From NCBI GenBank assembly GCA_004284765.1, contig NQJD01000022.1, forward strand, positions 1 to 32,000: a stretch of DNA of 32,000 nt, in the 5' to 3' direction. Shown here piece by piece: positions 11,319-30,663 of this stretch. Position 1 is the first letter of the stretch, and the number at the start of each line of letters is the position of its first letter. The notes under the pieces are model-generated. The model was not told where the DNA came from. It saw nothing but the letters and a program-made list of their open reading frames with translations, and searched no databases. The stretch is from Candidatus Electronema aureum. GTDB lineage: Bacteria; Desulfobacterota; Desulfobulbia; Desulfobulbales; Desulfobulbaceae. Position numbers and translations under genes: made by a program.

Positions 11319-11348
11319 TTGGCAGGAGCGGCCCTTTTTGTGTATGAT
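11319..11348 (+). promoter_or_regulatory. candidate sigma-70 promoter of the yceD-rpmF-plsX-fab operon
   Basis: TTGGCA (11319-11324), 18-nt spacer, TATGAT (11343-11348). This is a pattern match only. It would imply that the yceD start lies at one of the in-frame GTGs at 11387-11399 rather than 11360. Confidence 0.3.
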
Positions 11349-11359
11349 TTTAAATTTTA

Positions 11360-11914
11360 GTGTCCCCGCAGCCGCGTACCGACAAGGTGTCAGAGAGCGT
11401 GAACGTTCCATTTGCAGAGATTCCCAAAACAGGCAGCCATTACGCAGTAAGCGACGATGCTTGGCTGGCAGAGACTGGCTTGCTGCGCATAGCTCCAGTT
11501 GCAGCAGAGCTGAATCTTCGGTGCAAAGGCGAGAGCCGGGCCGAGGTAGAGGGCTTTCTGCGTACGGCGGTACGGCTTACTTGCGACTGTTGCCTGAACG
11601 ACTACGACTTTACTGTCGATGCTACCTTTCATCTGGTATTAGAAGTGCCTGATGAAGCTGACTGGAAGGTCAAAGAGCTGGAATGCACGGCTGCCGACTT
11701 TGACGTGGTGCAGGTTGATGAACCAATCGCTGATCTGGAAGATATCCTCCGGCAGCAGTTGTATCTCAGCCTGCCGATCAAGCAGGTCTGTTCGCCAGAC
11801 TGCCAAGGTCTCTGCCCGCATTGCGGTGCTGATCTGAATTCTGGCGGCTGCACCTGCTCGTCCGAGGTGAAGAATTCCCCGTTCGCCGCGTTGGCGGCAT
11901 TGAAGAAAAGATAA
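11360..11914 (+). CDS. yceD: YceD/DUF177 family protein (large-subunit ribosome-associated)
   Basis: Cys clusters CDCC and CSPDCQGLCPHCGADLN, and the C-terminal NSPFAALAALKK typical of YceD. It sits upstream of rpmF as in E. coli. The start codon is uncertain (GTG 11360 or 11387). Confidence 0.85.
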   Translation: MSPQPRTDKVSESVNVPFAEIPKTGSHYAVSDDAWLAETGLLRIAPVAAELNLRCKGESRAEVEGFLRTAVRLTCDCCLNDYDFTVDATFHLVLEVPDEADWKVKELECTAADFDVVQVDEPIADLEDILRQQLYLSLPIKQVCSPDCQGLCPHCGADLNSGGCTCSSEVKNSPFAALAALKKR

Positions 11915-11970: not shown

Positions 11971-12159
11971 ATGGCCTTGCCAAAAAGAAGACATTCCTAT
12001 TCCCGCACTCACAAGCGGAGAGCACACGACTTCCTCACCGCTCCTTCCGTAGGTCGCTGCCCGAACTGCGACGAGCCGAAGATGCCACATCAGCTTTGCT
12101 CTGGCTGTGGTAAATACAAGGGCAAAACCATTTATCAGCTTGGCGACGAGCTGGCGTAA
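11971..12159 (+). CDS. rpmF: 50S ribosomal protein L32
   Basis: MALPKRRHSYSRTHKRRAH... with CPNC...CSGC zinc-ribbon. ATG 11971 follows aaggag. The upstream part of the track ORF is rejected. Confidence 0.95.
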   Translation: MALPKRRHSYSRTHKRRAHDFLTAPSVGRCPNCDEPKMPHQLCSGCGKYKGKTIYQLGDELA

Positions 12160-12165
12160 GCTGCT

Positions 12166-13173
12166 GTGAGAATAGCCCTTGATGCCATGGGCGGCGACCG
12201 GGGTTCTGGCCCGCTGATTGACGGGGCCGTCCAGGCGGTCGAGCAGCATCCGGGCATCGAGGTGCTGCTGCTCGGCCCGGAGGAGCTGCTGCGGGCCGAG
12301 CTGGCCCAGCGGGGCAAAGGCGCGGAAACGCGCCTTTCCGTCGTTCATGCCCCGCAGACCGTCTCGATGGATGAGGCGGCAGTGGACTCAGTGCGCCGAA
12401 AGAAGGACTCCACCATCATGGTGGGCTTTGATCTGGTCAAACAAGGTCAGGCCGATGCTTTGGTCTCCGCCGGGCATTCCGGCGCGACCATGACTGCCGC
12501 CATCCTCCAGCTGGGACGGTTGAAGGGCATCTCTCGCCCCAGCATTGCCAGTGTTTTCCCTACGCTCAAAGAACCGGTTTTAGTGACCGACATCGGTGCC
12601 AACGTGGACTGCCGCCCGCAGCATCTCTATCAGTTCGCGGTCATGGCCTCGTCCTGCTCCGAGCTGCTGCTGAACCGGGCCAAGCCCCGCGTCGGTCTTC
12701 TCAGCATTGGCGAGGAGCCGGGCAAGGGCAACGCGGCAGTGAAGGAAGCCTATGATCTGCTCAAGGCCAGCAGCCTGAACTTTATCGGCAACGTCGAAGG
12801 CCGCGATGTGTACAGCGGCGATGTGGACGTGGTGATCTGCGACGGCTTTGTCGGTAACATCGTCCTGAAGATCAGTGAAGGACTGGCCGAAGCGATCCAG
12901 CAGATGCTCAAGACCGAGATCAAGAAATCCTTGGGAGCCAGCCTCGCCTCCTTCTTCATCCGCCCGGCCTTTCGCGCCTTCCGCAAGCGGGTGGATTACG
13001 CCGAATACGGCGGGGCACCACTGCTCGGCATCAACGGGGTGGGTATCATCTGTCATGGCACCTCCTCCGCAGTTGCCATCCGCAACGCCATTAAGGAAGC
13101 AGCCAAGATGGCTGAATGCCAGGTCAACGCGGCCATTACCCGTCATCTTCAGCAGGAAGTGGTGCAGGCATGA
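12166..13173 (+). CDS. plsX: phosphate acyltransferase PlsX
   Basis: (V)RIALDAMGGD N-terminus and HGTS near the C-terminus. GTG start 7 nt after rpmF. Confidence 0.95.
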   Translation: MRIALDAMGGDRGSGPLIDGAVQAVEQHPGIEVLLLGPEELLRAELAQRGKGAETRLSVVHAPQTVSMDEAAVDSVRRKKDSTIMVGFDLVKQGQADALVSAGHSGATMTAAILQLGRLKGISRPSIASVFPTLKEPVLVTDIGANVDCRPQHLYQFAVMASSCSELLLNRAKPRVGLLSIGEEPGKGNAAVKEAYDLLKASSLNFIGNVEGRDVYSGDVDVVICDGFVGNIVLKISEGLAEAIQQMLKTEIKKSLGASLASFFIRPAFRAFRKRVDYAEYGGAPLLGINGVGIICHGTSSAVAIRNAIKEAAKMAECQVNAAITRHLQQEVVQA

Positions 13174-14144
13174 GGCGGGCGGCTGTCCTTGGCACTGGCT
13201 CTTGTCTGCCTGAACGAGTGCTGACCAACGCCGAGCTGGAGCAGATGGTGGAGACCTCGGACGAGTGGATTACTGCTCGCACCGGCATCCGCAGCCGCCG
13301 CATCGCCGGGCCGGACGAGCAGAATTACCAGCTCGCCACGCGGGCGGCCCGCCGTGCCCTTGAGGCAGCCGGAGTCACTGCGGACGAGCTTGGCCTGATC
13401 ATCGTCGCCACCATCAGCCCGCACATGCTGATGCCTTCCTGCGCCTGCTTTGTCCAAGCGGAGCTGGGCGCGGCCAAAGCCTTCGCCTTTGATTTGAACG
13501 CAGCCTGCTCCGGTTTTCTTTATGGGCTAGATGTGGCGGCTAAATACATCGTCGCTGATCCGAACATGAAGGTGCTGGTGATCGGCTCGGAGACGCTCTC
13601 GGCGCGGGTTGATTGGGACGACCGCAACACCTGCATCCTCTTCGGCGACGGAGCCGGGGCCTGCGTGGTCGGCGGCGCGGAAGGGCGCGGCATCATTGAC
13701 AGCTGCCTGCTTTCCGACGGCAGCCTGTGGAATTTGCTCTACATGGACAGCCCGGCCAGCACCAATCCTGATCTGCTCGACCCGAAGAGCAAAGGCTGCG
13801 TCATCCAGATGTCTGGCCGCGATGTCTTCAAATACGCCGTCCGGGCGATGGAGGACGTTGTCCGCCAGCTTTTGGAGCGGCAGCAGCTCGCTGTCCAAGA
13901 CATCTCGCTCATCATTCCCCATCAGGCCAACATCCGCATTCTGGACAATCTTGCCGAACGCCTCGGCGCGGTGCCGGAGCAAATTTTCTGCAACGTGAAC
14001 AAATACGGCAACACCTCGGCGGCCAGCATTCCGATTGCCTTGGACGAGGCGGTGCGCGAAGGGCGGCTGCATCGCGGCGGCAAGCTGTTGCTCTGCTCGT
14101 TTGGCGGCGGCTTTACTTGGGGTTCGATGCTGCTGGACTGGTAG
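13170..14144 (+). CDS. fabH: 3-oxoacyl-ACP synthase III FabH
   Basis: MRRAAVLGTGSCLPERVLTNAELE..., active-site context NAACSGF, HQAN, GNTSAASIP. ATGA overlap with plsX. Confidence 0.95.
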   Translation: MRRAAVLGTGSCLPERVLTNAELEQMVETSDEWITARTGIRSRRIAGPDEQNYQLATRAARRALEAAGVTADELGLIIVATISPHMLMPSCACFVQAELGAAKAFAFDLNAACSGFLYGLDVAAKYIVADPNMKVLVIGSETLSARVDWDDRNTCILFGDGAGACVVGGAEGRGIIDSCLLSDGSLWNLLYMDSPASTNPDLLDPKSKGCVIQMSGRDVFKYAVRAMEDVVRQLLERQQLAVQDISLIIPHQANIRILDNLAERLGAVPEQIFCNVNKYGNTSAASIPIALDEAVREGRLHRGGKLLLCSFGGGFTWGSMLLDW

Positions 14145-14151
14145 CGCAAAG

Positions 14152-14278
14152 GTTTCATGCGCATGACTGTCCGGCTGTCATGTGCATGAGTTTCAGAAGG
14201 TCATAAGTATGACTGTCAGACTGTCATGAGCATGAGTCTCAGGCAGTCATGTACATGAGCGGGCGCGTTTCATGCGCA
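14152..14278 (+). promoter_or_regulatory. tandem repeat / palindrome array between fabH and the acyl-CoA dehydrogenase gene (candidate operator region)
   Basis: Two 41-nt units (14156-14196 and 14202-14242) are 34/41 identical, and a partial third unit lies at 14244-14259. The 19-nt near-palindrome ATGACTGTCAGACTGTCAT is at 14209-14227. The array is bracketed by 12-nt perfect direct repeats gtttcatgcgca (14152-14163 and 14267-14278). Confidence 0.6.
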
Positions 14279-14297
14279 GTGAGCAAAGGAGAACACG

Positions 14298-15446
14298 GTG
14301 GATTATTTTCTGACTGAAGAACAGCGGATGATCAAAGAGACCGCCCGCGATCTGACCGAGGCGAAGATCATTCCCAAGCGGGCCGAGCTGGACGAGCGCA
14401 ACGAGTTCGCAGGCGAGCTGCTGGCTGACATCGCTAAAGCTGATCTCTTCGCCGTGCTGGTGCCCGAAGCCTACGGCGGCATGGGTGTTGGCATCTTTGA
14501 CATCGTGCTTGCTTTGGAAGAACTGGCGCGGGGCTGCGTCGGCGTGGCCACCAGCTTTGCCGCCTGCGGCCTTGGCATTTTGCCGATTCTCATTTCCGGC
14601 AGCGAGGAGCTGAAGGAGAAGTATCTGCCCGCAGTTGCTGAGGGCAAGAGCCTGGCCGCCTTTGGCCTGACTGAGGCCAATGCCGGTTCCGATGCGGCGG
14701 GCATCCGCACCACGGCTGTGGACGGCGGCGACTGCTGGATTCTCAACGGCACCAAGCAGTGGATCACCAACGGCGGCGAGGCGCAGATTTACTCCATCAT
14801 TGCCCTCACCAGCCCGGAGAAAGGCATACGCGGGGCCTCGATGTTTGTGGTTGAGGACGGCGATCCTGGCTTCTCCTACGGCAAGAAGGAGAACAAGATG
14901 GGCATCCGCGCCTCAGCCACCCGCGAGCTGGTGATGAAGGACTGCCGCATTCCTAAAGACCGGCTGATCGGCAGAAAGGGCCACGGCTTTATCACGGTGA
15001 TGAAGACCTTGGACGTGTCGCGGCCCGGCATTGCCAGCTTGGGCGTGGGCTTGGCGCAAGCGGCACTCGACGAAGCGGCAAGCTATGCCAAGCAGCGCGT
15101 GCAATTTGGCAAGCCGATCATCAGCTTCCAGGCTGTCCAGCACATGCTCGCAGATATGGCGATTCAGACCGAGGCGGCGCGGGGCTTGGTCTATGGCGCG
15201 GCCCGGCATATTGATGCGCATCCTGAGGACGCAAGCAAGGTCTCGTCCATGTGCAAGGTCTTTGCCACGGATGCAGCCATGAAGGTGACGACAGATGCGG
15301 TGCAGGTCATGGGCGGCTACGGCTACATGAAAGAGTATCCGGTTGAGAAGATGATGCGCGATGCCAAGATCCTGCAAATCTACGAAGGCACCAACCAGAT
15401 TCAGCGCAATGTGATTGGCCAGGAACTGAACCGGGAATACGCATGA
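14298..15446 (+). CDS. acyl-CoA dehydrogenase (short-chain / butyryl-CoA dehydrogenase type)
   Basis: 382-aa ORF with GTG start after aaggag. Motifs GLTEANAGSD, WITNG, and catalytic-Glu context IYEGTNQIQR. Confidence 0.9.
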   Translation: MDYFLTEEQRMIKETARDLTEAKIIPKRAELDERNEFAGELLADIAKADLFAVLVPEAYGGMGVGIFDIVLALEELARGCVGVATSFAACGLGILPILISGSEELKEKYLPAVAEGKSLAAFGLTEANAGSDAAGIRTTAVDGGDCWILNGTKQWITNGGEAQIYSIIALTSPEKGIRGASMFVVEDGDPGFSYGKKENKMGIRASATRELVMKDCRIPKDRLIGRKGHGFITVMKTLDVSRPGIASLGVGLAQAALDEAASYAKQRVQFGKPIISFQAVQHMLADMAIQTEAARGLVYGAARHIDAHPEDASKVSSMCKVFATDAAMKVTTDAVQVMGGYGYMKEYPVEKMMRDAKILQIYEGTNQIQRNVIGQELNREYA

Positions 15447-16222
15447 AGATTATCGTCTGCATCAAGCAGGTGCCAGATGCCAAAGACGTGCGCCTTGATC
15501 CCAAGACCAACACCTTAGCCCGTGAAGGCGTGGCCGCGATCATGAATCCCTTTGACCGCCATGCCTTGGAAGAGGCGGTGCGGCTGAAGGAGCAGCTTGG
15601 CGGCACGGTGACGGCGTTGTCAATGGGGCCGCCGCAGGCGAAAGAGGTGCTGCTGGAGGCGATTTCCTGCGGCGCGGACGAGGGTGTGCTGGTCTCTGAT
15701 CGGGCCTTTGCTGGCGCAGACACTTGGGCGACTTCCTACACCCTTGCCAAGGCTGTGCAGTGCTTGGGCGCGTTTGATCTGATACTCTGCGGCAAGCAGG
15801 CGATTGACGGCGACACGGCGCAGGTCGGGCCGGGACTGGCGGCGCAGCTCAAGCTGCCCTATGTCACCTGTGTGCAAAAGACCCGCGAGGCCAGTGCTGC
15901 CGCGCTCCGGGTGGAGCGGATGATGGATGACGGCTACGATGTGGTGCAGCTGCCGCTGCCTGCCTTGCTGACTGTGGTCAAGGACATCAACGAGCCACGG
16001 GTGTCCTCGCTGAAGGGCAAGATGAAGGCGAAGAAGGCGGAAATCCGGGTGCTTTCTGCTGCGGACATCAAGGCGGAGCCGCAGTGCATCGGCTTGGCTG
16101 GTTCGCCGACCAAGGTGGCGCGGGTGTTCTCGCCGGAGCCGCGCGGCAACCGGAAGATGTTCTCCGGCACAGCGGTGGAGCAGGTGACGCAGTTGGTGGC
16201 GGAGATTCAGGGGTATTTGTGA
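15443..16222 (+). CDS. etfB: electron transfer flavoprotein beta subunit
   Basis: MKIIVCIKQVPD N-terminus and CGKQAIDGDTAQVGP. ATGA overlap with the dehydrogenase gene. Confidence 0.9.
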   Translation: MKIIVCIKQVPDAKDVRLDPKTNTLAREGVAAIMNPFDRHALEEAVRLKEQLGGTVTALSMGPPQAKEVLLEAISCGADEGVLVSDRAFAGADTWATSYTLAKAVQCLGAFDLILCGKQAIDGDTAQVGPGLAAQLKLPYVTCVQKTREASAAALRVERMMDDGYDVVQLPLPALLTVVKDINEPRVSSLKGKMKAKKAEIRVLSAADIKAEPQCIGLAGSPTKVARVFSPEPRGNRKMFSGTAVEQVTQLVAEIQGYL

Positions 16223-16416
16223 AAGAGCAGCTTGATTTTTCTTGGGAAGGCGCATTAGCTGATCTGAAAGATCAATATACCTCTGTGGAGTTGCAGCACG
16301 AGGCGATGCAGTGGAGGATTGATGAACTTGATGCTGATGCTCGGAAGGGCGGCACAGAGTTGTTTATGCAGGACAAGCAGGCGAAGATTAGTTTGGAACA
16401 CAAATTAAAAATGTGA
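16219..16416 (+). CDS. small hypothetical acidic protein (65 aa), start overlapping the etfB stop
   Basis: The GTG at 16219 overlaps the etfB TGA (ttGTGAaa). The ORF ends 10 nt before the antitoxin ATG. No recognised domain; coding status uncertain. Confidence 0.35.
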   Translation: MKEQLDFSWEGALADLKDQYTSVELQHEAMQWRIDELDADARKGGTELFMQDKQAKISLEHKLKM

Positions 16417-16426
16417 GGGAAAAATC

Positions 16427-16696
16427 ATGCCAGAGCTTGCTACAACTAAAATGTCATCGAAAGGGCAAGTAATCATACCGGAAGAAATACGCAAGCGCCT
16501 TAACTTGAAAAGCGGCACTCAATTCGTTATTGTTGCCGATAAAGATGTTGTTGTTTTAAAAAACATTACGCCACCTTCAATGGACGAATTTGATACGCTC
16601 ATCGCACAGGCGCGGGCGGCAGGGAAAGAGTCTGGCTTAAAAAAGAAGGATATTCAAGAAGCGATCATAAAGGCCAGAGGAACTGCCAAGAAGTGA
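16427..16696 (+). CDS. AbrB/MazE/SpoVT-family antitoxin
   Basis: SSKGQVIIPEEIRKRLNLKSGTQFVIV is the swapped-hairpin SpoVT-AbrB signature. Its stop overlaps the toxin start (GTGA). Confidence 0.85.
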   Translation: MPELATTKMSSKGQVIIPEEIRKRLNLKSGTQFVIVADKDVVVLKNITPPSMDEFDTLIAQARAAGKESGLKKKDIQEAIIKARGTAKK

Positions 16697-17103
16697 AGAT
16701 AGTTCTTGACACCAATGTGTTTATATCTGCCATATTTTTCGGAGGTCAGCCAGCTAAGATTCTTCAAGCATGGAGAGACCGAAAAATTCAGATAGTGCTT
16801 TCAGAGGAAATTTTAAGCGAATATCATCGAATAGCGGAGGGACTATCGGAAAAATATCCTAAGATTGATATCGGGCGTTTTTTTGAGTTGTTGATTCATT
16901 ACAGCGAGATGATTGAAACGCAACATGTATCTGTTGCGGCTTGTGAAGATTCAGATGATGACAAGTTTCTTGCATGTGCGATTGCAAGCGGCAGCAAGCT
17001 GATAGTAAGCGGTGATAAACATCTGTTGCATGTTTCTGGATATGAAGGGATTTCTGTGCTGAAGCCGAGAGAATTCGTTGATATTCATCTGAAAGAAATA
17101 TGA
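16693..17103 (+). CDS. PIN-domain toxin (VapC-like ribonuclease)
   Basis: (V)KIVLDTNVFISAIF, LSEEIL, DSDDDKFLACA, SGDKHLL supply the conserved acidic PIN residues. Order is the canonical antitoxin-then-toxin. Confidence 0.85.
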   Translation: MKIVLDTNVFISAIFFGGQPAKILQAWRDRKIQIVLSEEILSEYHRIAEGLSEKYPKIDIGRFFELLIHYSEMIETQHVSVAACEDSDDDKFLACAIASGSKLIVSGDKHLLHVSGYEGISVLKPREFVDIHLKEI

Positions 17104-17120
17104 ATAAAAAATACCGTATT

Positions 17121-17172
17121 ATTTTTACCGGCACAGCAGCGGAGCAGGTGACGGAAATTAGAGGTATTCATG
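17121..17172 (+). repeat. degenerate duplicate of the etfB 3' end
   Basis: 17128-17153 matches 16164-16189 at 24/26 nt. After a 12-nt gap relative to etfB, 17154-17178 matches 16202-16227 (18 of 26 aligned columns). At protein level this is FTGTAAEQVT-EIRGIH versus the etfB C-terminus FSGTAVEQVTQLVAEIQGYL. Confidence 0.8.
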
Positions 17173-17979
17173 AACAAGAAGATTGTTGATAATTTTTCAA
17201 AAAGGTATAGGTACAAGAATGCTGAGGAAGTTGAAATCACTATCCGTGAGGATGCGCCTCAGGAATTCAGAGCCTTTCTCATCGAGTTATTATACGAGTT
17301 TGGTTTTACTCCGAGCAGACTAAGAAAAATATTTTGTCTTGTTTTAAGACAAGTGCCAGATGAGGGCAATTGGTCTGAGTACCCAAATATTGATGGAGAA
17401 ATCAGAGGATTATTGCGTGATTGTGAGTGGTTTAAAGTTTATGACATCTTGGAAAAGATACTCCAAGATGATCGTTCTCATTTTAATCGAGATAAATTTA
17501 CTACAGAGGTGAACAATTTCTTTATTGAGGAGGGGTACGGTTGGAAAATAAATCAATCTTTAATTGAAATGCGTGGAGATAGATCTTTTGAACTTATTGT
17601 AAAGTCAGCTAGTGATAAATTAGCTGACGATCAATATAGTACAGCAAGCAAAGAATTATATCAGGCGTTAAAAGACTTATCAAGAAGACCTTCTTCAGAT
17701 ATAACAGGAGCTATTCAGCATTCAATGGCTTCTCTTGAATGTGTTGCACGGGAAATTACCGGAGATCGAAAGGCAACTCTCGGCGAGATAATGAGTAAAC
17801 ATAAGGGGCTAATTCCAGCTCCTTTGGATGAAGCTGTAACAAAAGCATGGGGATTTGCTTCTGAGTATGGCAGACATATTAGAGAAGGTCGTGAGCCAGC
17901 CTTTCAAGACGCAGAATTAATTGTCGGAATATGCTCATCTATTGGAAGTTATCTTTTAGGTTTAAAGAAAGCAAAATAA
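17170..17979 (+). CDS. AbiJ-like protein (AbiJ N-terminal-domain-like + helical HEPN-like C-terminal domain), candidate abortive-infection/defence gene
   Basis: 269-aa AT-rich ORF. The N-terminus FSKRYRYKNAEEVEITIREDAPQEFRAFLIELLYEFGF resembles the AbiJ-NTD pattern (FS-R-GY...I...D-P..LR..L). The C-terminal helical region has a GRHIREGR patch. This is a recognition-level call only. Confidence 0.55.
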   Translation: MNKKIVDNFSKRYRYKNAEEVEITIREDAPQEFRAFLIELLYEFGFTPSRLRKIFCLVLRQVPDEGNWSEYPNIDGEIRGLLRDCEWFKVYDILEKILQDDRSHFNRDKFTTEVNNFFIEEGYGWKINQSLIEMRGDRSFELIVKSASDKLADDQYSTASKELYQALKDLSRRPSSDITGAIQHSMASLECVAREITGDRKATLGEIMSKHKGLIPAPLDEAVTKAWGFASEYGRHIREGREPAFQDAELIVGICSSIGSYLLGLKKAK

Positions 17980-18058
17980 TTTTATAACAAAGCAAGAAGT
18001 TAAATTCCATGGCAGCAAATTTATCCGCAGTGCAATTCATACTGAATTTTATACTGTC

Positions 18059-19252
18059 ATGCTCATAGTTGACACCACCCTATGTATCGGCTGCGGAGTC
18101 TGCGAAGCCAACTGCGCCTTTGGAGCGATCATCCTCAAGGACGGCGTTGCCGTGGTCGGCGATGGCTGCAAGCTCTGCGGTTCCTGCGTGGACAACTGCG
18201 AACCCGGTGCCTTGCGCATTGAAACCGCTGCCAAAGCCGCGCCAAGCGATCTGTCCGCGTGGTCTGGCATCTGGGTCTTTGCTGAAGCGCGGCACGGCGT
18301 GGTTGCGCCAGTGGCTTTTGAGCTGCTGGGCATCGGCAGAAAGCTGGCTGATCAGCGCGGCACTGCCTTGACCGCTGTGCTGCTGGGTGCCAGTGTCGAG
18401 AGCAAGGCCGCCGAGCTGATCGCCGCAGGCGCGGACAAGGTGCTGCTCGCTGATGACCCCGCGCTTGCTCAGTACCGCGAGGACGTGTACGGCAAGGTGC
18501 TGGAGCATTTGATTCTTCAGCATAAACCTGAAGTGGTGCTGGCCGGAGCAACCGCCATTGGCCGCTCGGTCATTCCGCAGGTGGCGAATGTTCTTGGCGC
18601 GGGCCTGACCGCCGACTGCACCGCTCTTGCCATCCGCGCCGAAGACGGCGTGCTGCTGCAAACCCGCCCGGCCTTTGGCGGCAACATCATGGCAACGATT
18701 GAATGCCCGCAAACCCGGCCTCAGATGGCGACGGTGCGGCCTAATGTCATGGCCCCGATTGTGCCAGATGCAGCCCGCAGCGGCGAGGTGATCAAAGTGC
18801 CGCTCGCGCCGGATCTGCTGGCCTCCAAGGTCGAAGTGCTGGAAACGGTGTTCAGTCAGGAGCAGCAGGCCAATATTCAAGAGAAGGAAGTGCTGGTCAG
18901 CGGCGGGCGCGGCTTGGCAAGCGAGAAAGGCTTTGCCCTGCTTCACGAGCTGGCGAGCGAGCTGAACGGCGCGGTGTCTGCCTCGCGAGCCGCTGTGGAC
19001 GCAGGCTGGATCGGCTATCCCTGCCAGGTCGGCCAGACTGGCAAGACGGTCAGCCCGAAGCTCTACATCGCCTGCGGCATTTCCGGCGCGGTGCAGCACA
19101 CGGTCGGGATGCAGTCCGCCGAAACCATCGTCGCCATCAACCGCGACGAAAAGGCCCCGATCTTCGACCTCGCCACTTACGGCTTGGTTGGCGATCTTTT
19201 TGAAATCCTTCCCCTGCTGACGCAGAAAATCAGGGAGCAGCGCAGGCTATGA
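18059..19252 (+). CDS. etfA: electron transfer flavoprotein alpha subunit with N-terminal 2x[4Fe-4S] ferredoxin domain
   Basis: CIGCGVCEANC and CKLCGSCVDNCEP motifs are followed by an EtfA body with PKLYIACGISGAVQH. The stop overlaps the fabG ATG (ATGA). Confidence 0.9.
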   Translation: MLIVDTTLCIGCGVCEANCAFGAIILKDGVAVVGDGCKLCGSCVDNCEPGALRIETAAKAAPSDLSAWSGIWVFAEARHGVVAPVAFELLGIGRKLADQRGTALTAVLLGASVESKAAELIAAGADKVLLADDPALAQYREDVYGKVLEHLILQHKPEVVLAGATAIGRSVIPQVANVLGAGLTADCTALAIRAEDGVLLQTRPAFGGNIMATIECPQTRPQMATVRPNVMAPIVPDAARSGEVIKVPLAPDLLASKVEVLETVFSQEQQANIQEKEVLVSGGRGLASEKGFALLHELASELNGAVSASRAAVDAGWIGYPCQVGQTGKTVSPKLYIACGISGAVQHTVGMQSAETIVAINRDEKAPIFDLATYGLVGDLFEILPLLTQKIREQRRL

Positions 19253-19998
19253 CACTTGCAGGAAAAACAGCGTTAGTCACCGGCGGCAGCCGGGGCATAG
19301 GCCGGGCAATCTGCCTGCGCTTGGCCGCTCAGGGCGCGAATGTTGGCATCAATTACGTCAGCCGGGCCGCTGCTGCTGAAGAGGTTTTGGCGGAAATCAC
19401 CGCTGCGGGCGGCAAGGGCTTTGTCATCGGTTTTGACGTGACCGACAGCGCGGCAGTGCAGAACGCGGTAAAAACAATTTCTGCTGACCACGGCGGAGTT
19501 GATATACTGATCAACAACGCAGGCATCACCCGCGACGGCCTGATGGCCCGGATGAAGGACGAGGACTGGGACGCAGTGCTGAACACCAATCTCAAGGGCG
19601 CGTTCACCTGCTCGAAAGAGGCGATGCGCGGGATGATGAAAAAACGCTGGGGCCGGATCATCAACATCAGCTCGGTGATCGGCTGCGTCGGCAACGCGGG
19701 CCAGGTGAACTACGCGGCGGCCAAGGCAGGGCTGATCGGCCTGACTAAATCAATGGCCAAAGAGCTGGCTTCGCGCAAGATCACGGTCAATTGTGTAGCA
19801 CCGGGCTACATCGTCACTGACATGACCACCGAGCTGCCGGAGGAGATCAAGGAGAGCATCCTTGCCGCCATTCCGCTTGGCAGCATCGGCCAGCCGGAGG
19901 ATGTGGCCGATGCGGTCGCGTATCTCGCCGCTGAAGAAAGCGGCTATGTCACCGGCCAGACATTGCATGTCAACGGCGGCATGTACATGGGCAATTAA
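19249..19998 (+). CDS. fabG: 3-oxoacyl-ACP reductase FabG
   Basis: TGGSRGIGRA, NNAGITRD, NYAAAKAG, VNCVAPGYIVTDMT: canonical FabG SDR motifs. Confidence 0.95.
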   Translation: MTLAGKTALVTGGSRGIGRAICLRLAAQGANVGINYVSRAAAAEEVLAEITAAGGKGFVIGFDVTDSAAVQNAVKTISADHGGVDILINNAGITRDGLMARMKDEDWDAVLNTNLKGAFTCSKEAMRGMMKKRWGRIINISSVIGCVGNAGQVNYAAAKAGLIGLTKSMAKELASRKITVNCVAPGYIVTDMTTELPEEIKESILAAIPLGSIGQPEDVADAVAYLAAEESGYVTGQTLHVNGGMYMGN

Positions 19999-20073
19999 GA
20001 ATTACCGTTCGGAACGGCGGATTTCCGTCCGCAATTTTTGCATATCTCAACAAGAACTATCAGGAGAACGAGC

Positions 20074-20304
20074 ATGGCAGTTGCAGAGAAGATGATCGAC
20101 ATCATTGTGGAGCAGCTCAGTGTGGATAAAGAGAAAGTTGTTCCCAACGCCTCCTTTGTGGATGATCTGGGTGCGGATTCTTTGGATCAGGTTGAGCTGA
20201 TCATGGCAATGGAAGAGGCTTTTGATATCGAAATCCCAGATGAGGATGCTGAAAAAATCAAAACCGTCCAGAGTGCCATCGATTATGTGGAGAAGCTCCA
20301 GTAG
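20074..20304 (+). CDS. acpP: acyl carrier protein
   Basis: 76 aa with [17 protein letters not shown] (phosphopantetheine Ser). ATG 20074 follows aggaga. The upstream part of the track ORF is rejected. Confidence 0.95.
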
Positions 20305-20315
20305 TAAGCAAGCAC

Positions 20316-20345
20316 GCATCAGCAGGAGGTCTATCCTGCTGATGC
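20316..20345 (+). other. perfect 12-bp stem-loop between acpP and fabF (no U-tract)
   Basis: gcatcagcagga (20316-20327), loop ggtcta, tcctgctgatgc (20334-20345). It is a likely mRNA-stability/attenuation hairpin, as often seen after acpP. Confidence 0.8.
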
Positions 20346-20367
20346 CCGCCCTTCACTTCAGCACAGG

Positions 20368-21621
20368 ATGAGTGACGTGAAACAGCGACGGGTTGTTGTG
20401 ACAGGAATTGGTCTGGTGACTCCACTGGGCACCGGCACCGATAACACGTGGGAAGGACTGATGAACGGGCGCAGCGGCATCGGGCCGATCACCCGTTTTG
20501 ATGCATCGGCTCATGCTGCGCAGATTGCTGCTGAGGTCAAAGATTTTACTCCGGAACGCTGGTTCGAGCCGAAGCAGGTCAAAAATCTCGACCTCTTTGT
20601 TCAGTACGCTGTGGCTGCTGCGGATATAGCCATGCAGGACAGCGGCTTGGAACTCAGCGAAGAACTGGCAGAGCGGGTTGGTGTGATCACTGGCTGCGGT
20701 ATGGGTAGCCTGCCCACCATCGAGGAATACCACTCGGTGCTGCTGGCTAAGGGGCCGCGCCGGATCACTCCTTTCTTCATCCCCAGGGTGATTCCCAACA
20801 TGCCTTCCGGCCACATCTCCATGCGCTTTGGGGCCAAGGGGCCGAATCTTGCTCTTTCAACGGCCTGCGCCGCAGGCACTCACGCGGTGGGCGAGGCGTA
20901 CCGCCATATTATTTTCGGTGACTGTGACGCAGCCATCACCGGCGGCGCAGAAGCGGTCATCTGCCCAATAGCGGTCGGCGGCTTTGCGGCAATGAAGGCT
21001 CTGTCCACCCGCAACGAGGAGCCGGAACGCGCTTCGCGGCCTTTTGACCGCGACCGCGACGGCTTCATCATGGCCGAAGGCGCGGGCATGATTCTGTTGG
21101 AGGAGTTGGAATCAGCACGAAAACGCGGAGCCAAGATCTATGCTGAGATCGTCGGCTATGGCCTGAGCAGCGATGCCTATCATATTGCCGCTCCGCCTGA
21201 CGACGGCGACGGCGCGGCCCGCTGCATGAGGATGGCTCTCCGCAGCGCGGGCATGAACCCGGACGAGATTGACTACATCAACGCGCACGGCACCTCGACC
21301 CCGCTCAACGATAGCTGCGAGACTGCGGCGATCAAGACCGTCTTTGGCGATCATGCCTATAAGCTGGCGGTCAGCTCCACTAAATCAATGACCGGCCACA
21401 TGCTGGGTGGTGCAGGCGGCATCGAGGCGGCTTTTACCGCGCTCACGTTGTATCATCAGTGCATTCCGCCAACCACGAATTACGAGAATCCTGATCCGGC
21501 CTGCGATCTGGACTATGTGCCGAACACGGCCCGCAAGATGCAAATCCGGGCGGCGATGTCCAATTCCTTCGGCTTCGGCGGCACCAACGGGGTCATCATC
21601 ATGAAGCGGTTTGAGGGATAA
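20368..21621 (+). CDS. fabF: 3-oxoacyl-ACP synthase II FabF
   Basis: RRVVVTGIGLVTPLG, active-site ALSTACAAG, NAHGTSTPLND, SNSFGFGGTNG. Confidence 0.95.
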   Translation: MSDVKQRRVVVTGIGLVTPLGTGTDNTWEGLMNGRSGIGPITRFDASAHAAQIAAEVKDFTPERWFEPKQVKNLDLFVQYAVAAADIAMQDSGLELSEELAERVGVITGCGMGSLPTIEEYHSVLLAKGPRRITPFFIPRVIPNMPSGHISMRFGAKGPNLALSTACAAGTHAVGEAYRHIIFGDCDAAITGGAEAVICPIAVGGFAAMKALSTRNEEPERASRPFDRDRDGFIMAEGAGMILLEELESARKRGAKIYAEIVGYGLSSDAYHIAAPPDDGDGAARCMRMALRSAGMNPDEIDYINAHGTSTPLNDSCETAAIKTVFGDHAYKLAVSSTKSMTGHMLGGAGGIEAAFTALTLYHQCIPPTTNYENPDPACDLDYVPNTARKMQIRAAMSNSFGFGGTNGVIIMKRFEG

Positions 21622-21624
21622 GAA

Positions 21625-22050
21625 ATGAAAATTGCAGTGGGCAGCGACCACGGCGGCTTTGAGCTGAAGCAGCAGGTGGTGGAATTTCTGAGCAAGGCCG
21701 GGTACGAGGTTGAGTCCGTGGGCTGCTTCGATCTGGCCTCGGTGGATTATCCCGATTTCGCCGAAAAGGTCTGCGCTTTGGTGAAGTCAGGGGCCTGCGA
21801 GCGGGGCATCCTCATCTGCGGCACCGGCATCGGCATGTCCATCGCCGCCAACCGGCACCGAGACATCCGCGCCGCCCTCTGCCACGAGGCCTTCACCGCC
21901 CGCATGAGCCGCGAGCACAACAACGCCAACGTCCTCTGTCTCGGCGCACGGGTGATCGGCCCGGAGCTGGCCTTGGAAATCGTGCGGACGTGGGTGGTGG
22001 CGGAGTTCGTGGGCGGCAGGCATCAGCGCAGATTGGATATATTGAGCTGA
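21625..22050 (+). CDS. rpiB: ribose-5-phosphate isomerase B
   Basis: MKIAVGSDHGGFELK, ILICGTGIGMSIAANR, HNNANVLCLGARV. Confidence 0.9.
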   Translation: MKIAVGSDHGGFELKQQVVEFLSKAGYEVESVGCFDLASVDYPDFAEKVCALVKSGACERGILICGTGIGMSIAANRHRDIRAALCHEAFTARMSREHNNANVLCLGARVIGPELALEIVRTWVVAEFVGGRHQRRLDILS

Positions 22051-22087: not shown

Positions 22088-22118
22088 CGGCAGCCCTGCT
22101 CGGTGCTGCCGTTTTTTT
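22088..22118 (+). terminator. rho-independent terminator after rpiB
   Basis: Stem cggcagc (22088-22094) / gctgccg (22105-22111), followed by T7 (22112-22118). Confidence 0.8.
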
Positions 22119-22159
22119 ATTTATCATCGCCGGGTTATGTTAAACCAAAGAGCATTGAC

Positions 22160-23602
22160 ATGGATAAAAAACTTGATATTCTAAAAAGTATAGATTTTGG
22201 TCAATCGGTAGCTGAACAGGAAGCCGAAAAGTTAGAGATGTATTTCGTTAAGACACGTCAATGGAATCAGGTATATAAAGATGAAATAGATATCGTTTAT
22301 GGTCCTAAAGGAGCTGGTAAAAGTGCCATCTATTCTTTGATTGAAAAGTATGAACCGAGTTTTTTCCAAAAAAATATCGTGTTGATATTTGCTGAGAATC
22401 CAAGAGGAGCAACTGCTTTCAGCGATCTTGAAACAGCTCCTCCTTCTGATGAAAGATCATTTGTTAATTTATGGAAACTATATTTTCTTGTTTTAATAGG
22501 GGAACATTTTCAAATTTATGGCACACAAACACTTAATGGTTCAGATGTATTAAACACGTTAACAGAAAGCGGATTGCTTCAAAAAGGAAATACTCTCAGG
22601 TCGATACTAGGTAAAATTAAGAATTATATTTATAAATATTTTAATCCTCAATCTTTCGAGCCGAATGTATCGTTCAACGAACAAACTGACAGCATGGCAA
22701 AAAATGGCGCAAAATCTGTGGACGCTCTTTTTCATAAAGCTAATAAGGAACTTAAAAAATCAGAATTTAAAATTTGGTTTCTTCTTGACAGGCTGGATGT
22801 CGCCTTCGCAGACTCTCCTGGATTAGAAGAAAACGCTTTGAGGGCTTTATTTAAAACGTACTTAGATTTAATGGGATTTGAAAATTTTAAAATAAAAATT
22901 TTTTTAAGATTAGATATATGGAGAAAGATCACTAAAGAAGGTTTCAGAGAAGCTACTCATATTACCAAGTGCACAACTATAGAATGGGAAAGATCTTCCC
23001 TGCTTAATTTAGTTATCAGGAGACTATTAAATAATAATTTATTACTACGTTATTACAATATAGAAAAAGAAGAAGTATTATCGGATATCTCCTCTCAGGA
23101 GAAACTGTTTTATAAGATTTTTCCAAGAAAAATTGATATTGGAAAAAATCCAGACACGTTTGATTGGATATTAGGTCGTGTTGAAGATTCCCTCGGTTTA
23201 TCCGCACCACGTGATATTATCAATCTTATCAATGGTGCTATATCAGCACAGATAAAATCATTTGAATTAGGTGAAAATTCAACAGAAGAAACTGCTCTGT
23301 TCGGTCGAGCCAGTTTAAAGAAAGGTCTTGCTTATGCTTCAAGAGAAAAAACAGAAAAATATTTATTTGCTGAATATCCTTCTCTTCGAAAATATTTTGA
23401 CTCATTGCGTGGTGGAAAGGCAACACAGACATTAACCTCGCTTTCATCTCTCTGGAATTGTTCTGAAAACGAAGCGGAACAAATAGCGGCACAGATCGTG
23501 CAGACAGGATTCTGGAAAATTGAAAAGAAAGGACAGTCAACATACTGGATACATTTTATCTTTAGAGATGCTTTAGAGATTGTACAGGGTACCGCGAAAT
23601 AA
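22160..23602 (+). CDS. orphan P-loop NTPase (STAND/KAP-like; possibly the family annotated as Sll1717-type P-loop ATPase)
   Basis: 480-aa AT-rich ORF from ATG 22160. The track extension to 22103 would run through the rpiB terminator. Walker A GPKGAGKS, Walker-B-like [10 protein letters not shown], and a long helical C-terminal region. Confidence 0.7.
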
Positions 23603-24915: not shown

Positions 24916-25385
24916 CTCCCATCGGTTTCATCTATAGCCCGTTCAGCAGCTTGGAAGGAATGCCCATCCAGCCGACCGGCGCAGCCGGAGTGCGCGGCAG
25001 GGTGGAAATCCTGCCTGAATACCGGGCGGGCTTGAAGGATATCGAGGGCTTCTCGCATCTAATTCTGCTTTATCTCTTTCACCGCAGCAGCGGCTTTCAG
25101 CTAGAAGTGGTGCCGTTCTTGGACAGCCAGCCACGCGGCCTTTTTGCCACCCGCGCCCCTAAACGACCGAATCCCATCGGCCTATCCATCGTCCGCTTGG
25201 ATTCAGTGGAAAATGGTGTGCTGAATGTGCAGGATGTTGACATCTTGGACGGCACGCCGCTTTTGGACATCAAACCCTATGTGCCGGTGTTCGACCGCCG
25301 CGAAGGAGTACGGGCGGGTTGGCTGGAATCGACAGGCAACGCGGTTGCGGCGCATAAATCCGATGCCCGTTTTGCTGCGCCATGA
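24912..25385 (+). CDS. trmO: tRNA (t6A37) methyltransferase TrmO/TsaA (YaeB family)
   Basis: [44 protein letters not shown] overlap with glyA. Confidence 0.85.
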
Positions 25386-30532: not shown

Positions 30533-30663
30533 TTGATATCTCCTGATGTATGTATTCAATCAGCAAAATAACTATATTGAATAAAGATGCCTTTTACATA
30601 TCTGTAGGCGTACACTGTTCAATATTTTCCTTACTCATTATACATAAATTTAATTTTTCTTTG

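What the first reader, a model, noticed from the sequence alone, without database searches (positions are those of the whole stretch)
13170..21621. Acyl-CoA dehydrogenase + EtfB + ferredoxin-fused EtfA occupy the fabD slot of the fatty-acid synthesis operon
The canonical order is yceD-rpmF-plsX-fabH-fabD-fabG-acpP-fabF (E. coli and many others). Here fabD is missing, and acd-etfB-(island)-etfA sits between fabH and fabG. The etfA stop overlaps the fabG start (19249-19252, ATGA), so Etf and FabG are translationally coupled rather than merely adjacent. EtfA carries an extra N-terminal 2x[4Fe-4S] domain (CIGCGVCEANC, CKLCGSCVDNC). I recall this feature from flavin-based electron-bifurcating Etf complexes of anaerobes (A. 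woodii CarE/LctC type). No enoyl-ACP reductase gene is present in the cluster. Hypothesis: this Acd/Etf complex works in the reductive direction as an Etf/ferredoxin-linked enoyl-thioester reductase feeding type II FAS, or it couples FAS to a reverse-beta-oxidation route.
Basis: partly seen in the sequence, partly recalled or inferred. Interest (0 to 1): 0.65.

Follow-up and report, generated by a model that had tools for sequence, protein, structure and literature searches.

The report
Electron-bifurcating-type reductase genes inside lipid-synthesis operon
In a cable bacterium and about 75 related species, genes for an acyl-thioester dehydrogenase and a ferredoxin-linked flavoprotein sit inside the core fatty-acid-synthesis operon. 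They probably supply the operon's missing reduction step in an energy-saving way, which no paper I could find has described.

Summary
The + strand reads yceD-rpmF-plsX-fabH-acd-etfB-[low-GC island]-Fd-etfA-fabG-acpP-fabF. There is no fabD or known enoyl-ACP reductase (ENR) in the cluster. ATGA overlaps join plsX/fabH, acd/etfB and etfA/fabG.

The arrangement is not strain-specific. About 75 of 80 species-representative genomes keep acd-etfB-etfA just upstream of fabG, after fabH in nearly all. These are Desulfobulbaceae, Desulfocapsaceae, Desulfurivibrionaceae and related MAGs. The etfA stop overlaps the fabG start in 50 of 72.

Acd is the second most conserved operon protein, after ACP. Its GC3 matches the fab genes, so it is native.

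In a second phylum (Nitrospirota, Thermodesulfovibrionales), etfB-Fd-etfA is fused in the same way to a true fabD. It is sometimes joined by acd or acpS, in five different contexts.

The Etf is of the bifurcating type. Its best solved relatives are CarE/CarD (6FAH), the eight Fe-S cysteines are conserved and the EtfB DGDTAQVGP motif is invariant.

Best explanation, confidence about 0.5: an NADH-dependent, ferredoxin-reducing enoyl-thioester (probably enoyl-ACP) reductase serving type II fatty acid synthesis. Untested: ACP versus CoA specificity, and whether FabI/K/L/V exist elsewhere in these genomes.

Ten literature searches found no description of this.

The parts
11319..11348 (+). Sigma-70-like promoter candidate upstream of yceD (TTGGCA-18-TATGAT). 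Possible operon promoter.
   Evidence: 10 of 12 matches. This is a consensus match only, not proof of function.
11360..11914 (+). yceD (DUF177)
   Evidence: Pfam PF02620.
11977..12159 (+). rpmF (ribosomal protein L32)
   Evidence: Translation. Ribosomal_L32p gene at the same position in L002/L004.
12166..13173 (+). plsX; its stop overlaps the fabH start (ATGA)
   Evidence: PF02504 at 1.9e-109; junction sequence.
13170..14144 (+). [quoted passage not shown]
   Evidence: TIGR00747, 407 bits against a cut-off of 292.
14155..14269 (+). Four to five tandem 23-nt units in the fabH-acd spacer, including two 20-mers ATGACTGTCNGRCTGTCATG. Operator-like and lineage-specific.
   Evidence: (0 expected by chance). 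The spacer is about 20 nt in D. propionicus.
14298..15446 (+). Acd: ACAD-family flavoprotein with catalytic Glu363 (YEGT). Proposed catalytic subunit of the enoyl-thioester reductase.
   Evidence: Pfam PF02771/PF02770/PF00441. Best solved relatives are short-chain ACADs and Bcd. The Glu is invariant in 85/85 orthologues. Median identity across species is 75%.
15443..16222 (+). EtfB, bifurcating type, with CGKQAIDGDTAQVGP. ATGA-coupled to acd.
   Evidence: PF01012. Best PDB matches are CarD 6fah_B at 2.8e-74 and LctB 7qh2_B. The core of the motif (C116, G117, K118, A120 and D122-P130) is invariant in 82/82, with minor variation at Q119 and I121.
16219..17979 (+). Low-GC inserted island, all genes co-oriented with the operon: orf65 (16219-16416, GTGA-coupled to etfB), AbrB/MazE antitoxin (16427-16696), PIN toxin (16693-17103), AbiJ_NTD4 / PDC-S32 protein (17170-17979).
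   Evidence: Different cargo sits at the same site in four other cable-bacteria genomes.
18059..19252 (+). Fd-EtfA: N-terminal 2x[4Fe-4S] ferredoxin domain (about 18059-18240) followed by ETF and ETF_alpha FAD domains. Its stop overlaps the fabG start.
   Evidence: CarE 6fah_A at 1.1e-120, aligned over residues 7-391. Eight Cys conserved in 78/79. ATGA junction.
19249..19998 (+). fabG (3-oxoacyl-ACP reductase)
   Evidence: TIGR01830, 345 bits against a cut-off of 298.
20071..20304 (+). acpP (acyl carrier protein)
   Evidence: TIGR00517, 109 bits.
20368..21621 (+). [quoted passage not shown]
   Evidence: TIGR03150, 653 bits.

Best explanation
[quoted passage not shown] No other gene in the operon provides this step.

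Proposed mechanism: NADH delivers a hydride to the bifurcating FAD on EtfB. One electron goes downhill through the EtfA FAD to the Acd FAD, and after two rounds it reduces trans-2-enoyl-ACP (or a CoA equivalent) to acyl-ACP. The other electron goes uphill through the two [4Fe-4S] clusters of the EtfA ferredoxin domain to external ferredoxin or flavodoxin. The large free energy of enoyl reduction is thus partly saved as reduced ferredoxin.

Shown: gene content, bifurcating-type sequence features, and conserved, translationally coupled placement among FAS genes in two phyla.

Inferred: complex formation, the reductive direction, the ACP-bound substrate, bifurcation, and replacement of FabI/K/L/V.
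For: 1. Conserved operon membership. The Acd scan of one genome per species found 555 relatives, and the best 80 were kept. About 75 of these keep acd-etfB-etfA immediately upstream of fabG, preceded by fabH in nearly all. This holds even where plsX, acpP or fabH have moved (L082, L083).

2. Tight coupling. The etfA stop overlaps the fabG start in 50/72 genomes, with the 4-nt form in 39. The fabH-acd gap has a median of 18.5 nt. In the window, plsX/fabH, acd/etfB and etfA/fabG all share ATGA.

3. Housekeeping-level constraint. Acd median identity is 75%, second only to AcpP (80%) and above FabF (70%), FabG (67%) and FabH (63.5%). The catalytic Glu, the EtfB motif and the eight Cys are essentially invariant.

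4. Native and co-inherited. GC3 is 0.75-0.80, like the fab genes. Acd divergence tracks FabF, FabG and PlsX divergence, with Spearman 0.71-0.75.

5. Independent association in Nitrospirota. etfB-Fd-etfA is followed directly, or with overlap, by a true fabD (TIGR00128, 375 bits; 49-57% identical to E. coli FabD). This occurs in five loci with different flanks, with acd upstream in three and acpS upstream in one.

6. Bifurcating-type Etf. The top solved relatives are CarE/CarD, T. maritima EtfAB, A. fermentans and C. difficile EtfAB, and LctC/LctB. Canonical ETFs score far lower.

7. The ACAD fold does accept carrier-protein-tethered substrates. MbtN acyl-ACP dehydrogenase and prolyl-PCP dehydrogenases appear among the family hits.

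8. No FabI-like gene lies within 10 kb in any of about 85 loci. None lies in the 8.5 kb upstream or about 7 kb downstream of the window either.

9. From my own knowledge, not tested here: cultured Desulfobulbus and Thermodesulfovibrio are not known as fatty-acid oxidisers, so a universally conserved Bcd-like enzyme lacks an obvious catabolic role. In Firmicutes the flavoprotein ENR gene fabK occupies the equivalent slot (fabH-acpP-fabK-fabD-fabG).
Against: - The Acd's nearest characterised relatives all act on CoA thioesters. It reaches no NCBIfam equivalog cut-off, so substrate and direction are open.
- ACP docking was not tested.
- Whole genomes could not be searched, so a canonical FabI/K/L/V may exist elsewhere.
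- FabK, FabV and FabL were screened only through Pfam/NCBIfam on operon genes, not with their own sequences against the flanks.
- In Thermodesulfovibrio and Dissulfurispira thermophila, acd sits alone after pmbA, away from etf-fabD.
- Gene neighbourhood is correlative evidence.
Confidence: 0.5

Rival explanations
1. Ordinary acyl-CoA metabolism. A butyryl- or short-chain acyl-CoA dehydrogenase/Etf works on CoA thioesters, for example in recycling or beta-oxidation of fatty acids or in fermentative redox balancing. On this view it sits in the fab operon only for co-regulation with lipid turnover.
For: The best solved and curated relatives are acyl-CoA enzymes: Bcd 5ol2_C at 2.3e-108, 4l1f, and AcrC and cyclohexane-carbonyl-CoA dehydrogenase profiles. 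Database names are 'butyryl-CoA dehydrogenase'. In some Nitrospirota acd is not next to any FAS gene.
Against: No thiolase, hydratase or 3-hydroxyacyl-CoA dehydrogenase gene is in the cluster or its conserved flanks. Placement between fabH and fabG with start/stop overlaps holds across about 75 species, and there is a second, independent fusion to fabD/acpS. Conservation is higher than that of most Fab proteins.
Confidence: 0.2
2. A backtracking acyl-ACP dehydrogenase for anaerobic unsaturated-fatty-acid synthesis, functionally like H. pylori FabX. Acd would oxidise a medium-chain acyl-ACP to trans-2-enoyl-ACP, and perhaps isomerise it to cis-3. Etf would carry the electrons away, possibly confurcating with reduced ferredoxin to NAD+.
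For: The FAS-operon placement fits equally well. FabX shows that a flavoprotein with a [4Fe-4S] cluster can run this step backwards within FAS II (PMC8626469, found). The ACAD catalytic Glu is a dehydrogenase feature. From my own knowledge: Desulfobulbaceae are rich in monounsaturated fatty acids.
Against: This would still leave the operon and all examined flanks without an ENR. A one-per-chain side reaction hardly explains a three-gene bifurcating-type complex that is more conserved than FabF or FabG. No isomerase partner was seen.
Confidence: 0.12
3. Primer supply. An acryloyl-CoA or crotonyl-CoA reductase makes propionyl- or butyryl-CoA starter units for the adjacent FabH, which would explain odd-chain lipids.
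For: The top NCBIfam profiles for all three subunits are the C. propionicum acryloyl-CoA reductase AcrABC set. The acd gene directly follows fabH. From my own knowledge: Desulfobulbus lipids are rich in odd-chain acids.
Against: All three scores are far below the equivalog cut-offs (414 against 640, 243 against 475, 349 against 600). In Nitrospirota the linkage is to fabD/acpS, not fabH. L083 keeps acd-etfBA without an adjacent fabH. From my own knowledge: propionyl-CoA is already available from the methylmalonyl-CoA pathway in Desulfobulbus.
Confidence: 0.06

Closest known systems
Butyryl-CoA dehydrogenase/EtfAB complex of Clostridia and Acidaminococcus (PDB 5OL2, 4KPU, 4L1F)
   Same: It has an ACAD-fold dehydrogenase plus a two-FAD EtfAB, and reduces an enoyl thioester with NADH while reducing ferredoxin. 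Sequence matches are Bcd 5ol2_C at 2.3e-108, EtfA 5ol2_A at 2.5e-84 and EtfB 5ol2_B at 5e-64. It shares the catalytic Glu and the EtfB DGDTAQVGP motif.
   Different: The clostridial genes lie in butyrate-fermentation clusters with thiolase, hbd and crt. Their EtfA matches start only after the window protein's ferredoxin domain (4kpu_A and 5ol2_A align from query residue 70-71). Here the genes are embedded in plsX-fabH...fabG-acpP-fabF, EtfA carries a 2x[4Fe-4S] domain, and the presumed substrates are C4-C18 enoyl-ACPs.
Caffeyl-CoA reductase CarCDE of Acetobacterium woodii (PDB 6FAH)
   Same: It is the best solved match for both Etf subunits: CarE at 1.1e-120 over residues 7-391, including the ferredoxin domain, and CarD at 2.8e-74. 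CarC is an ACAD homologue at 2.1e-93.
   Different: CarCDE reduces a phenylacrylyl-CoA in caffeate respiration. The window's Acd is closer to Bcd and short-chain ACADs than to CarC, and the genomic context is fatty-acid synthesis.
FabK, the flavoprotein enoyl-ACP reductase II of Firmicutes
   Same: It is a flavin-dependent ENR encoded inside the fab operon next to fabD/fabG. The positional analogy rests on my own knowledge. It would catalyse the same proposed pathway step.
   Different: FabK is an unrelated fold (FMN TIM barrel, PF03060), a single subunit, and has no ferredoxin coupling. No PF03060 protein is in the operon.
FabX of Helicobacter pylori
   Same: It is a flavoprotein with a [4Fe-4S] cluster acting on acyl-ACP within FAS II (PMC8626469).
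   Different: FabX is a FabK-type fold, works as a dehydrogenase/isomerase for unsaturated acids, and coexists with FabI. There is no Etf.
Carrier-protein-dependent ACADs (MbtN acyl-ACP dehydrogenase; prolyl-PCP dehydrogenases PigA, RedW, AnaB)
   Same: They share the ACAD fold and show that the fold can take phosphopantetheine-tethered substrates on carrier proteins (hits).
   Different: They are much more distant in sequence (for example MbtN 58 bits, 4irn at 1.1e-52), act oxidatively in secondary metabolism, and have no bifurcating Etf partner.

Membership tests
Bifurcating (group 2) electron-transferring flavoproteins | Closer in sequence to experimentally bifurcating Etfs than to canonical mitochondrial or Paracoccus ETF | tested here: met
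   EtfA scores 407-282 bits against CarE, T. maritima, A. fermentans, C. difficile and LctC, and about 166 bits against human ETF. EtfB scores 253-210 bits against about 106 bits.
Bifurcating (group 2) electron-transferring flavoproteins | EtfB motif of the second (bifurcating) FAD / NADH site, DGDTAQVGP, where canonical ETFs differ (my own knowledge of the motif) | tested here: met
   CGKQAIDGDTAQVGP is present. The core of the motif (C116, G117, K118, A120 and D122-P130) is invariant in 82/82 orthologues, with minor variation at Q119 and I121. The same segment is present in the aligned CarD and LctB sequences.
Bifurcating (group 2) electron-transferring flavoproteins | Two FAD per EtfAB and NADH-dependent ferredoxin reduction coupled to a high-potential acceptor | not testable with these tools
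   Requires biochemistry.
CarE/LctC-type EtfA with N-terminal ferredoxin domain | N-terminal 2x[4Fe-4S] domain with two CxxCxxCxxxC motifs fused to EtfA | tested here: met
   Fer4 family hits on residues 3-51. The alignment to CarE starts at residue 7. Eight Cys are conserved in 78/79.
Acyl-CoA dehydrogenase (ACAD) superfamily | N-terminal, middle and C-terminal ACAD domains and a catalytic glutamate in the Y-E-G-T segment | tested here: met
   PF02771, PF02770 and PF00441. Glu363 is aligned with solved ACADs and invariant in 85/85.
Specific curated ACAD subfamilies (acryloyl-CoA reductase AcrC, cyclohexane-1-carbonyl-CoA dehydrogenase, glutaryl-CoA dehydrogenase and others) | Score above the NCBIfam equivalog cut-off | tested here: not met
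   Best scores are 414 against 640 (AcrC) and 367 against 650 (CyhCrbnylCoADH). EtfB and EtfA likewise fall below the AcrB and AcrA cut-offs.
Known enoyl-ACP reductase families (FabI/FabL/FabV SDR-type; FabK FMN type) | Homology to one of the four known ENR folds | tested here: not met
   Acd/Etf are unrelated folds. E. coli FabI matches only FabG weakly, in the window and in all loci. If this is an ENR, it is a new class rather than a member.
Known enoyl-ACP reductase families (functional definition) | Reduces trans-2-enoyl-ACP in the FAS II cycle | not testable with these tools
   Needs enzyme assays or complementation of fabI(Ts).
Canonical yceD-rpmF-plsX-fabH-fabD-fabG-acpP-fabF operon | Gene order as in E. 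coli | tested here: not met
   The E. coli order was confirmed in NC_000913. Here, and in about 75 relatives, fabD is absent from the slot and acd-etfB-etfA occupies it.

The most novel reading that the evidence does not exclude
Desulfobulbales (including cable bacteria) and Thermodesulfovibrionales use a fifth, previously unrecognised class of enoyl-ACP reductase. It would be a flavin-based electron-bifurcating Acd/EtfB/Fd-EtfA complex acting as their main or sole ENR. Every elongation cycle of membrane-lipid synthesis would then regenerate reduced ferredoxin from NADH, an energy-conserving FAS II suited to energy-limited anaerobes that need low-potential electrons for CO2 fixation.
Probability: 0.35. 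Interest if true: 0.85.

Novelty: new variant of a known kind. Interest (0 to 1): 0.72.

Why it matters
Enoyl-ACP reductase is the pacing and most variable step of bacterial fatty acid synthesis and a major antibiotic target. Four classes are known (FabI, FabL, FabV, FabK). A Bcd/Etf-type, ferredoxin-coupled ENR would add a mechanistically different class.

It would also show that electron bifurcation is used in core anabolism, not only in fermentation and respiration. That would change energy and redox budgets for sulfate reducers, sulfur disproportionators and cable bacteria. It would correct the 'butyryl-CoA / cyclohexene-carbonyl-CoA dehydrogenase' names now given to hundreds of these genes, which can be misread as evidence for fatty-acid or aromatic degradation in metagenome studies.

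The hypothesis is directly testable with Desulfobulbus propionicus, which is cultured and has the operon without the island.

Tried and rejected
1. Search for a canonical ENR.
- E. coli FabI by tblastn against the window and about 85 loci hit only FabG.
- Clustering and reading the conserved flanking families found ribD, Mla, permeases, pilC, RNase D and similar, but no ENR.
- Extending the source chromosome by about 8.5 kb upstream and about 7 kb downstream found nothing.
- Whole genomes could not be scanned. Absence is therefore unproven.

2. Literature. Ten full-text searches and a term search of the text of an ENR review (PMC9260719), the ladderane FAS comparison (PMC2649909) and the closed cable-bacteria genome paper with its supplements (PMC10030654) found no mention of Acd/Etf in FAS II. 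The Etf-family classification paper and the 2019 cable-bacteria genome paper are not held.

3. Chain-length inference from pocket residues. The positions equivalent to MCAD Gln95/Glu99 are Ala/Ala here (MCAD numbering from my own knowledge). The short-chain ACAD 3pfd has Ser/Ala at the same columns, so this does not discriminate, and I dropped it.

4. Terminator scan. Counts inside the operon equal chance, so nothing can be said about transcript boundaries.

5. Reverse beta-oxidation coupling. Rejected for lack of any thiolase, hbd or crt gene.

6. Recent horizontal insertion of acd-etf. Rejected because GC3 is the same as in the fab genes, divergence is correlated with theirs, and conservation is order-wide.

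Full report
**1. What is in the window**

ORF listing, Pfam and NCBIfam give one co-directional gene string on the + strand:

| Gene | Coordinates | Note |
|---|---|---|
| yceD | 11360-11914 | |
| rpmF | 11977-12159 | |
| plsX | 12166-13173 | |
| fabH | 13170-14144 | |
| Acd | 14298-15446 | 382 aa, acyl-CoA-dehydrogenase family |
| EtfB | 15443-16222 | |
| island | 16219-17979 | 1.76 kb, low GC |
| Fd-EtfA | 18059-19252 | 397 aa, ferredoxin-fused |
| fabG | 19249-19998 | |
| acpP | 20071-20304 | |
| fabF | 20368-21621 | |
| rpiB | 21625-22050 | |

- The junctions plsX/fabH, acd/etfB and etfA/fabG are ATGA start/stop overlaps.
- E. coli FabD, taken from NC_000913, has no match anywhere in the 32-kb window. 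E. coli FabI only grazes FabG.
- Window proteins are encoded on NCBI chromosome OW818638.1 (GCA_942492785.1, 2.94 Mb). Its sibling accessions are closed cable-bacteria genomes. The paper reporting those genomes describes a closed Ca. Electronema aureum GS genome (PMC10030654). The source is therefore most likely that freshwater cable bacterium. This is an inference.

**2. The arrangement is conserved, not a strain oddity**

- The Acd is 80-97% identical to proteins from Desulfobulbus, Ca. Electrothrix and many MAGs.
- In D. propionicus DSM 2032 the order is yceD-rpmF-plsX-fabH-acd-etfB-Fd-etfA-fabG-acpP-fabF-rpiB, with no island.
- In Ca. Electrothrix laxa the order is the same, with a different island.
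- A scan of one genome per species found 555 Acd relatives, and the best 80 were kept.
- tblastn of all window proteins against those loci shows acd-etfB-etfA immediately upstream of fabG in about 75 of the 80. fabH precedes it in nearly all; a few show no adjacent fabH (L083, and probable assembly gaps such as L055 and L062).
- These cover Desulfobulbaceae, Desulfocapsaceae, Desulfurivibrionaceae, Desulfopila, Desulforhopalus and unclassified Thermodesulfobacteriota MAGs. Acd identity to the window runs from 94% down to 66%.
- The block stays in place even where plsX and acpP (L082) or fabH (L083) are missing from their usual positions.
- None of these loci has fabD between fabH and fabG.

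Gene-spacing statistics:

| Junction | Result |
|---|---|
| etfA stop / fabG start | overlap in 50 of 72 genomes (39 with the 4-nt overlap) |
| fabH-acd gap | median 18.5 nt |
| etfB-etfA gap | median 20 nt |

**3. The genes behave like core operon members**

Median identity to the window proteins across species:

| Protein | Median identity |
|---|---|
| AcpP | 80% |
| Acd | 75% |
| EtfB | 72% |
| FabF | 70% |
| FabG | 67% |
| FabH | 63.5% |
| EtfA | 63% |
| PlsX | 61% |

- Acd divergence correlates with that of FabF, FabG and PlsX (Spearman 0.71-0.75).
- GC3 of acd, etfB and etfA (0.75-0.80) equals that of the fab genes. Island genes have GC3 of 0.28-0.52.
- The block is therefore ancient, vertically inherited and strongly constrained.

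**4. An independent link to fatty-acid synthesis in a second phylum**

- The three lowest-ranking loci of the scan are Nitrospirota.
- In L080 and L081 the order is pmbA-acd-etfB-Fd-etfA-fabD, followed by panD in L080. The etfA stop overlaps the fabD start.
- A homologue search with that EtfA, followed by context look-ups, gave three more contexts:
  - Dissulfurispira sp.: acpS-etfB-Fd-etfA-fabD
  - a 555-kb contig: mdh-ndk-acd-etfB-Fd-etfA-fabD
  - a third contig: etfB-Fd-etfA-fabD
- All three have unrelated flanks.
- The downstream gene is a genuine FabD. It scores 375 bits on TIGR00128 against a cut-off of 261, and is 49-57% identical to E. coli FabD. The upstream gene in L089 is a holo-ACP synthase.
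- In Thermodesulfovibrio and Dissulfurispira thermophila the acd gene sits alone after pmbA, so linkage of acd itself is looser there.
- Two phyla and two different FAS partners make chance adjacency very unlikely.

**5. What kind of proteins these are**

- Fd-EtfA best matches CarE of the A. woodii caffeyl-CoA reductase (6fah_A, E = 1.1e-120). The alignment runs from residue 7 to 391 and so includes the ferredoxin domain. Next come the EtfA subunits of four other experimentally bifurcating systems. Human and Paracoccus ETF score less than half as much.
- EtfB behaves the same way, with CarD and LctB on top.
- The eight cysteines of the two [4Fe-4S] motifs are conserved in 78 of 79 orthologues. 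The core of the EtfB segment CGKQAIDGDTAQVGP (C116, G117, K118, A120 and D122-P130) is invariant in 82 of 82, with minor variation at Q119 and I121.
- The Acd is a standard ACAD with the catalytic Glu in YEGT, invariant in 85 of 85.
- Its best solved relatives are short-chain ACADs and the C. difficile and A. fermentans butyryl-CoA dehydrogenases that work with bifurcating Etfs.
- It reaches none of the curated subfamily cut-offs. The nearest is acryloyl-CoA reductase AcrC, at 414 bits against 640.
- Database names such as 'butyryl-CoA dehydrogenase' or 'cyclohex-1-ene-1-carbonyl-CoA dehydrogenase' are therefore similarity labels, not assignments.

**6. Most likely function**

- Apart from chain initiation and condensation, the FAS II cycle needs a ketoreductase (FabG, present), a dehydratase and an enoyl reductase.
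- The only step an ACAD-fold flavoprotein can chemically perform is interconversion of acyl and trans-2-enoyl thioesters.
- With a bifurcating-type Etf, the known physiological direction in Bcd/EtfAB and CarCDE is reductive: 2 NADH + oxidised ferredoxin + enoyl thioester gives 2 NAD+ + reduced ferredoxin + acyl thioester. This is established knowledge of those systems.
- I therefore propose that Acd/EtfB/Fd-EtfA is the enoyl-thioester reductase of fatty-acid synthesis in these bacteria, most probably acting on enoyl-ACP, and that it recovers reduced ferredoxin.
- The ACAD fold is known to accept carrier-protein-bound substrates (MbtN and prolyl-PCP dehydrogenases appear).
- From my own knowledge, fabK, the flavoprotein ENR of Firmicutes, occupies the same operon slot next to fabD/fabG.
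- Also from my own knowledge, cultured Desulfobulbus and Thermodesulfovibrio are not known to oxidise fatty acids. That leaves a universally conserved Bcd-like enzyme without an obvious catabolic role.

Shown: sequence features and conserved, coupled gene placement. Inferred: complex formation, direction, ACP specificity, bifurcation, and replacement of known ENRs. Confidence is about 0.5.

**7. Rivals**

- (a) Ordinary acyl-CoA metabolism co-located for regulation, confidence about 0.2. It fits the sequence similarity. It fits poorly with the missing companion enzymes, the overlaps with fab genes and the second fusion to fabD/acpS.
- (b) A FabX-like backtracking acyl-ACP dehydrogenase for anaerobic unsaturated-fatty-acid synthesis, confidence about 0.12 (PMC8626469). 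It fits the context. It leaves the ENR step unassigned and hardly needs such a conserved three-subunit bifurcating-type machine.
- (c) Primer supply (acryloyl- or crotonyl-CoA reductase for FabH), confidence about 0.06. The AcrABC profile hits are far below cut-off, and the Nitrospirota linkage is to fabD, not fabH.

**8. What could not be settled**

- The key comparative test is whether these genomes lack FabI, FabK, FabL and FabV.
- Within that reach, no FabI-like gene was found near any of about 85 loci or in the extended source chromosome.
- A FabD-like gene, just under the FabD cut-off at 252 against 261 bits, lies 2.5 kb upstream of the operon in one Desulfobulbaceae MAG (L069). fabD has therefore probably moved rather than been lost.
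- Ten literature searches and three papers searched by term found no description of Acd/Etf in FAS II. In a 2022 review of bacterial ENR classes, the terms 'acyl-CoA dehydrogenase' and 'flavoprotein' do not occur.

**9. The island**

- The 1.76-kb insert between etfB and etfA carries four genes:
  - a 65-aa ORF whose GTG start overlaps the etfB stop
  - an AbrB/MazE-type antitoxin
  - a PIN toxin
  - an AbiJ-N-terminal-domain protein matching PADLOC candidate PDC-S32
- Four other cable-bacteria genomes carry different low-GC, same-strand cargo at exactly this intergenic site. The cargo includes DUF2281-like/PIN pairs, BrnT/antitoxin and Mrr-type nucleases.
- About 70 other Desulfobulbales have only about 20 nt there.
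- acd, etfB and etfA stay intact in all of them. This again argues that they are indispensable and that the island is read through.

**10. Verdict**

No description was found in the searchable literature. This would be a new use of a known enzyme type, and possibly a new class of ENR. It is clearly testable in cultured D. propionicus.

Noticed in passing
window 16219-17979; L005 11930-13553; L006 11934-13139; L007 12005-13226; L008 11928-13431: The etfB-etfA intergenic gap is an insertion hot spot in cable bacteria. Five genomes carry different low-GC (0.38-0.41), operon-co-oriented cargo there: toxin-antitoxin pairs (PIN, BrnT) plus an AbiJ-like or Mrr-type nuclease gene. About 70 other Desulfobulbales have only about 20 nt at this site. 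In the window, the first island ORF (65 aa) starts with a GTG overlapping the etfB stop, and its sequence resembles the C-terminal half of the 68-aa antitoxin in L005.
   Followed up: partly
window 22103-23602: A second low-GC island (GC 0.34) between rpiB and glyA encodes a 499-aa Sll1717-family P-loop ATPase (NF047389, 188 bits; PADLOC PDC-M28C). It is absent from this position in Ca. Electrothrix laxa (L004).
   Followed up: partly
window 14155-14269: The fabH-acd spacer holds four to five tandem 23-nt units with two 20-mers ATGACTGTCNGRCTGTCATG (none expected by chance). It looks like an operator or iteron array. The spacer is only about 20 nt in D. propionicus, so the array is lineage-specific.
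   Followed up: partly
window 29078-30559 (- strand): A third low-GC stretch (about 0.30) encodes a 493-aa polytopic membrane protein with no Pfam match. It lies next to two family-2 glycosyltransferases (26943-28013, 28010-28966). It is possibly a horizontally acquired polysaccharide polymerase or glycosyltransferase.
   Followed up: no
window 685-1371: The low-GC start of the window encodes a DUF4145 protein with weak PADLOC hits (PD-T7-4 at 5.7e-07). It is another candidate defence gene.
   Followed up: no
L080 10001-14682; L089 8775-12120; L090 8071-12123; L091 9209-12108: In Thermodesulfovibrionales (Nitrospirota), etfB-Fd-etfA-fabD is a conserved, overlapping gene triplet in otherwise unrelated contexts. 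acd, acpS or panD are adjacent in some loci.
   Followed up: yes
L069 4332-5282: One Desulfobulbaceae MAG has a diverged FabD-like acyltransferase (252 bits against the FabD cut-off of 261) between lspA and mlaA, 2.5 kb upstream of the fab operon. It hints at where fabD went in this order.
   Followed up: partly
window 24912-25385: A TrmO-like gene (PF01980) sits between glyA and nrdR, overlapping both neighbours. Ca. Electrothrix laxa has glyA directly followed by nrdR.
   Followed up: no
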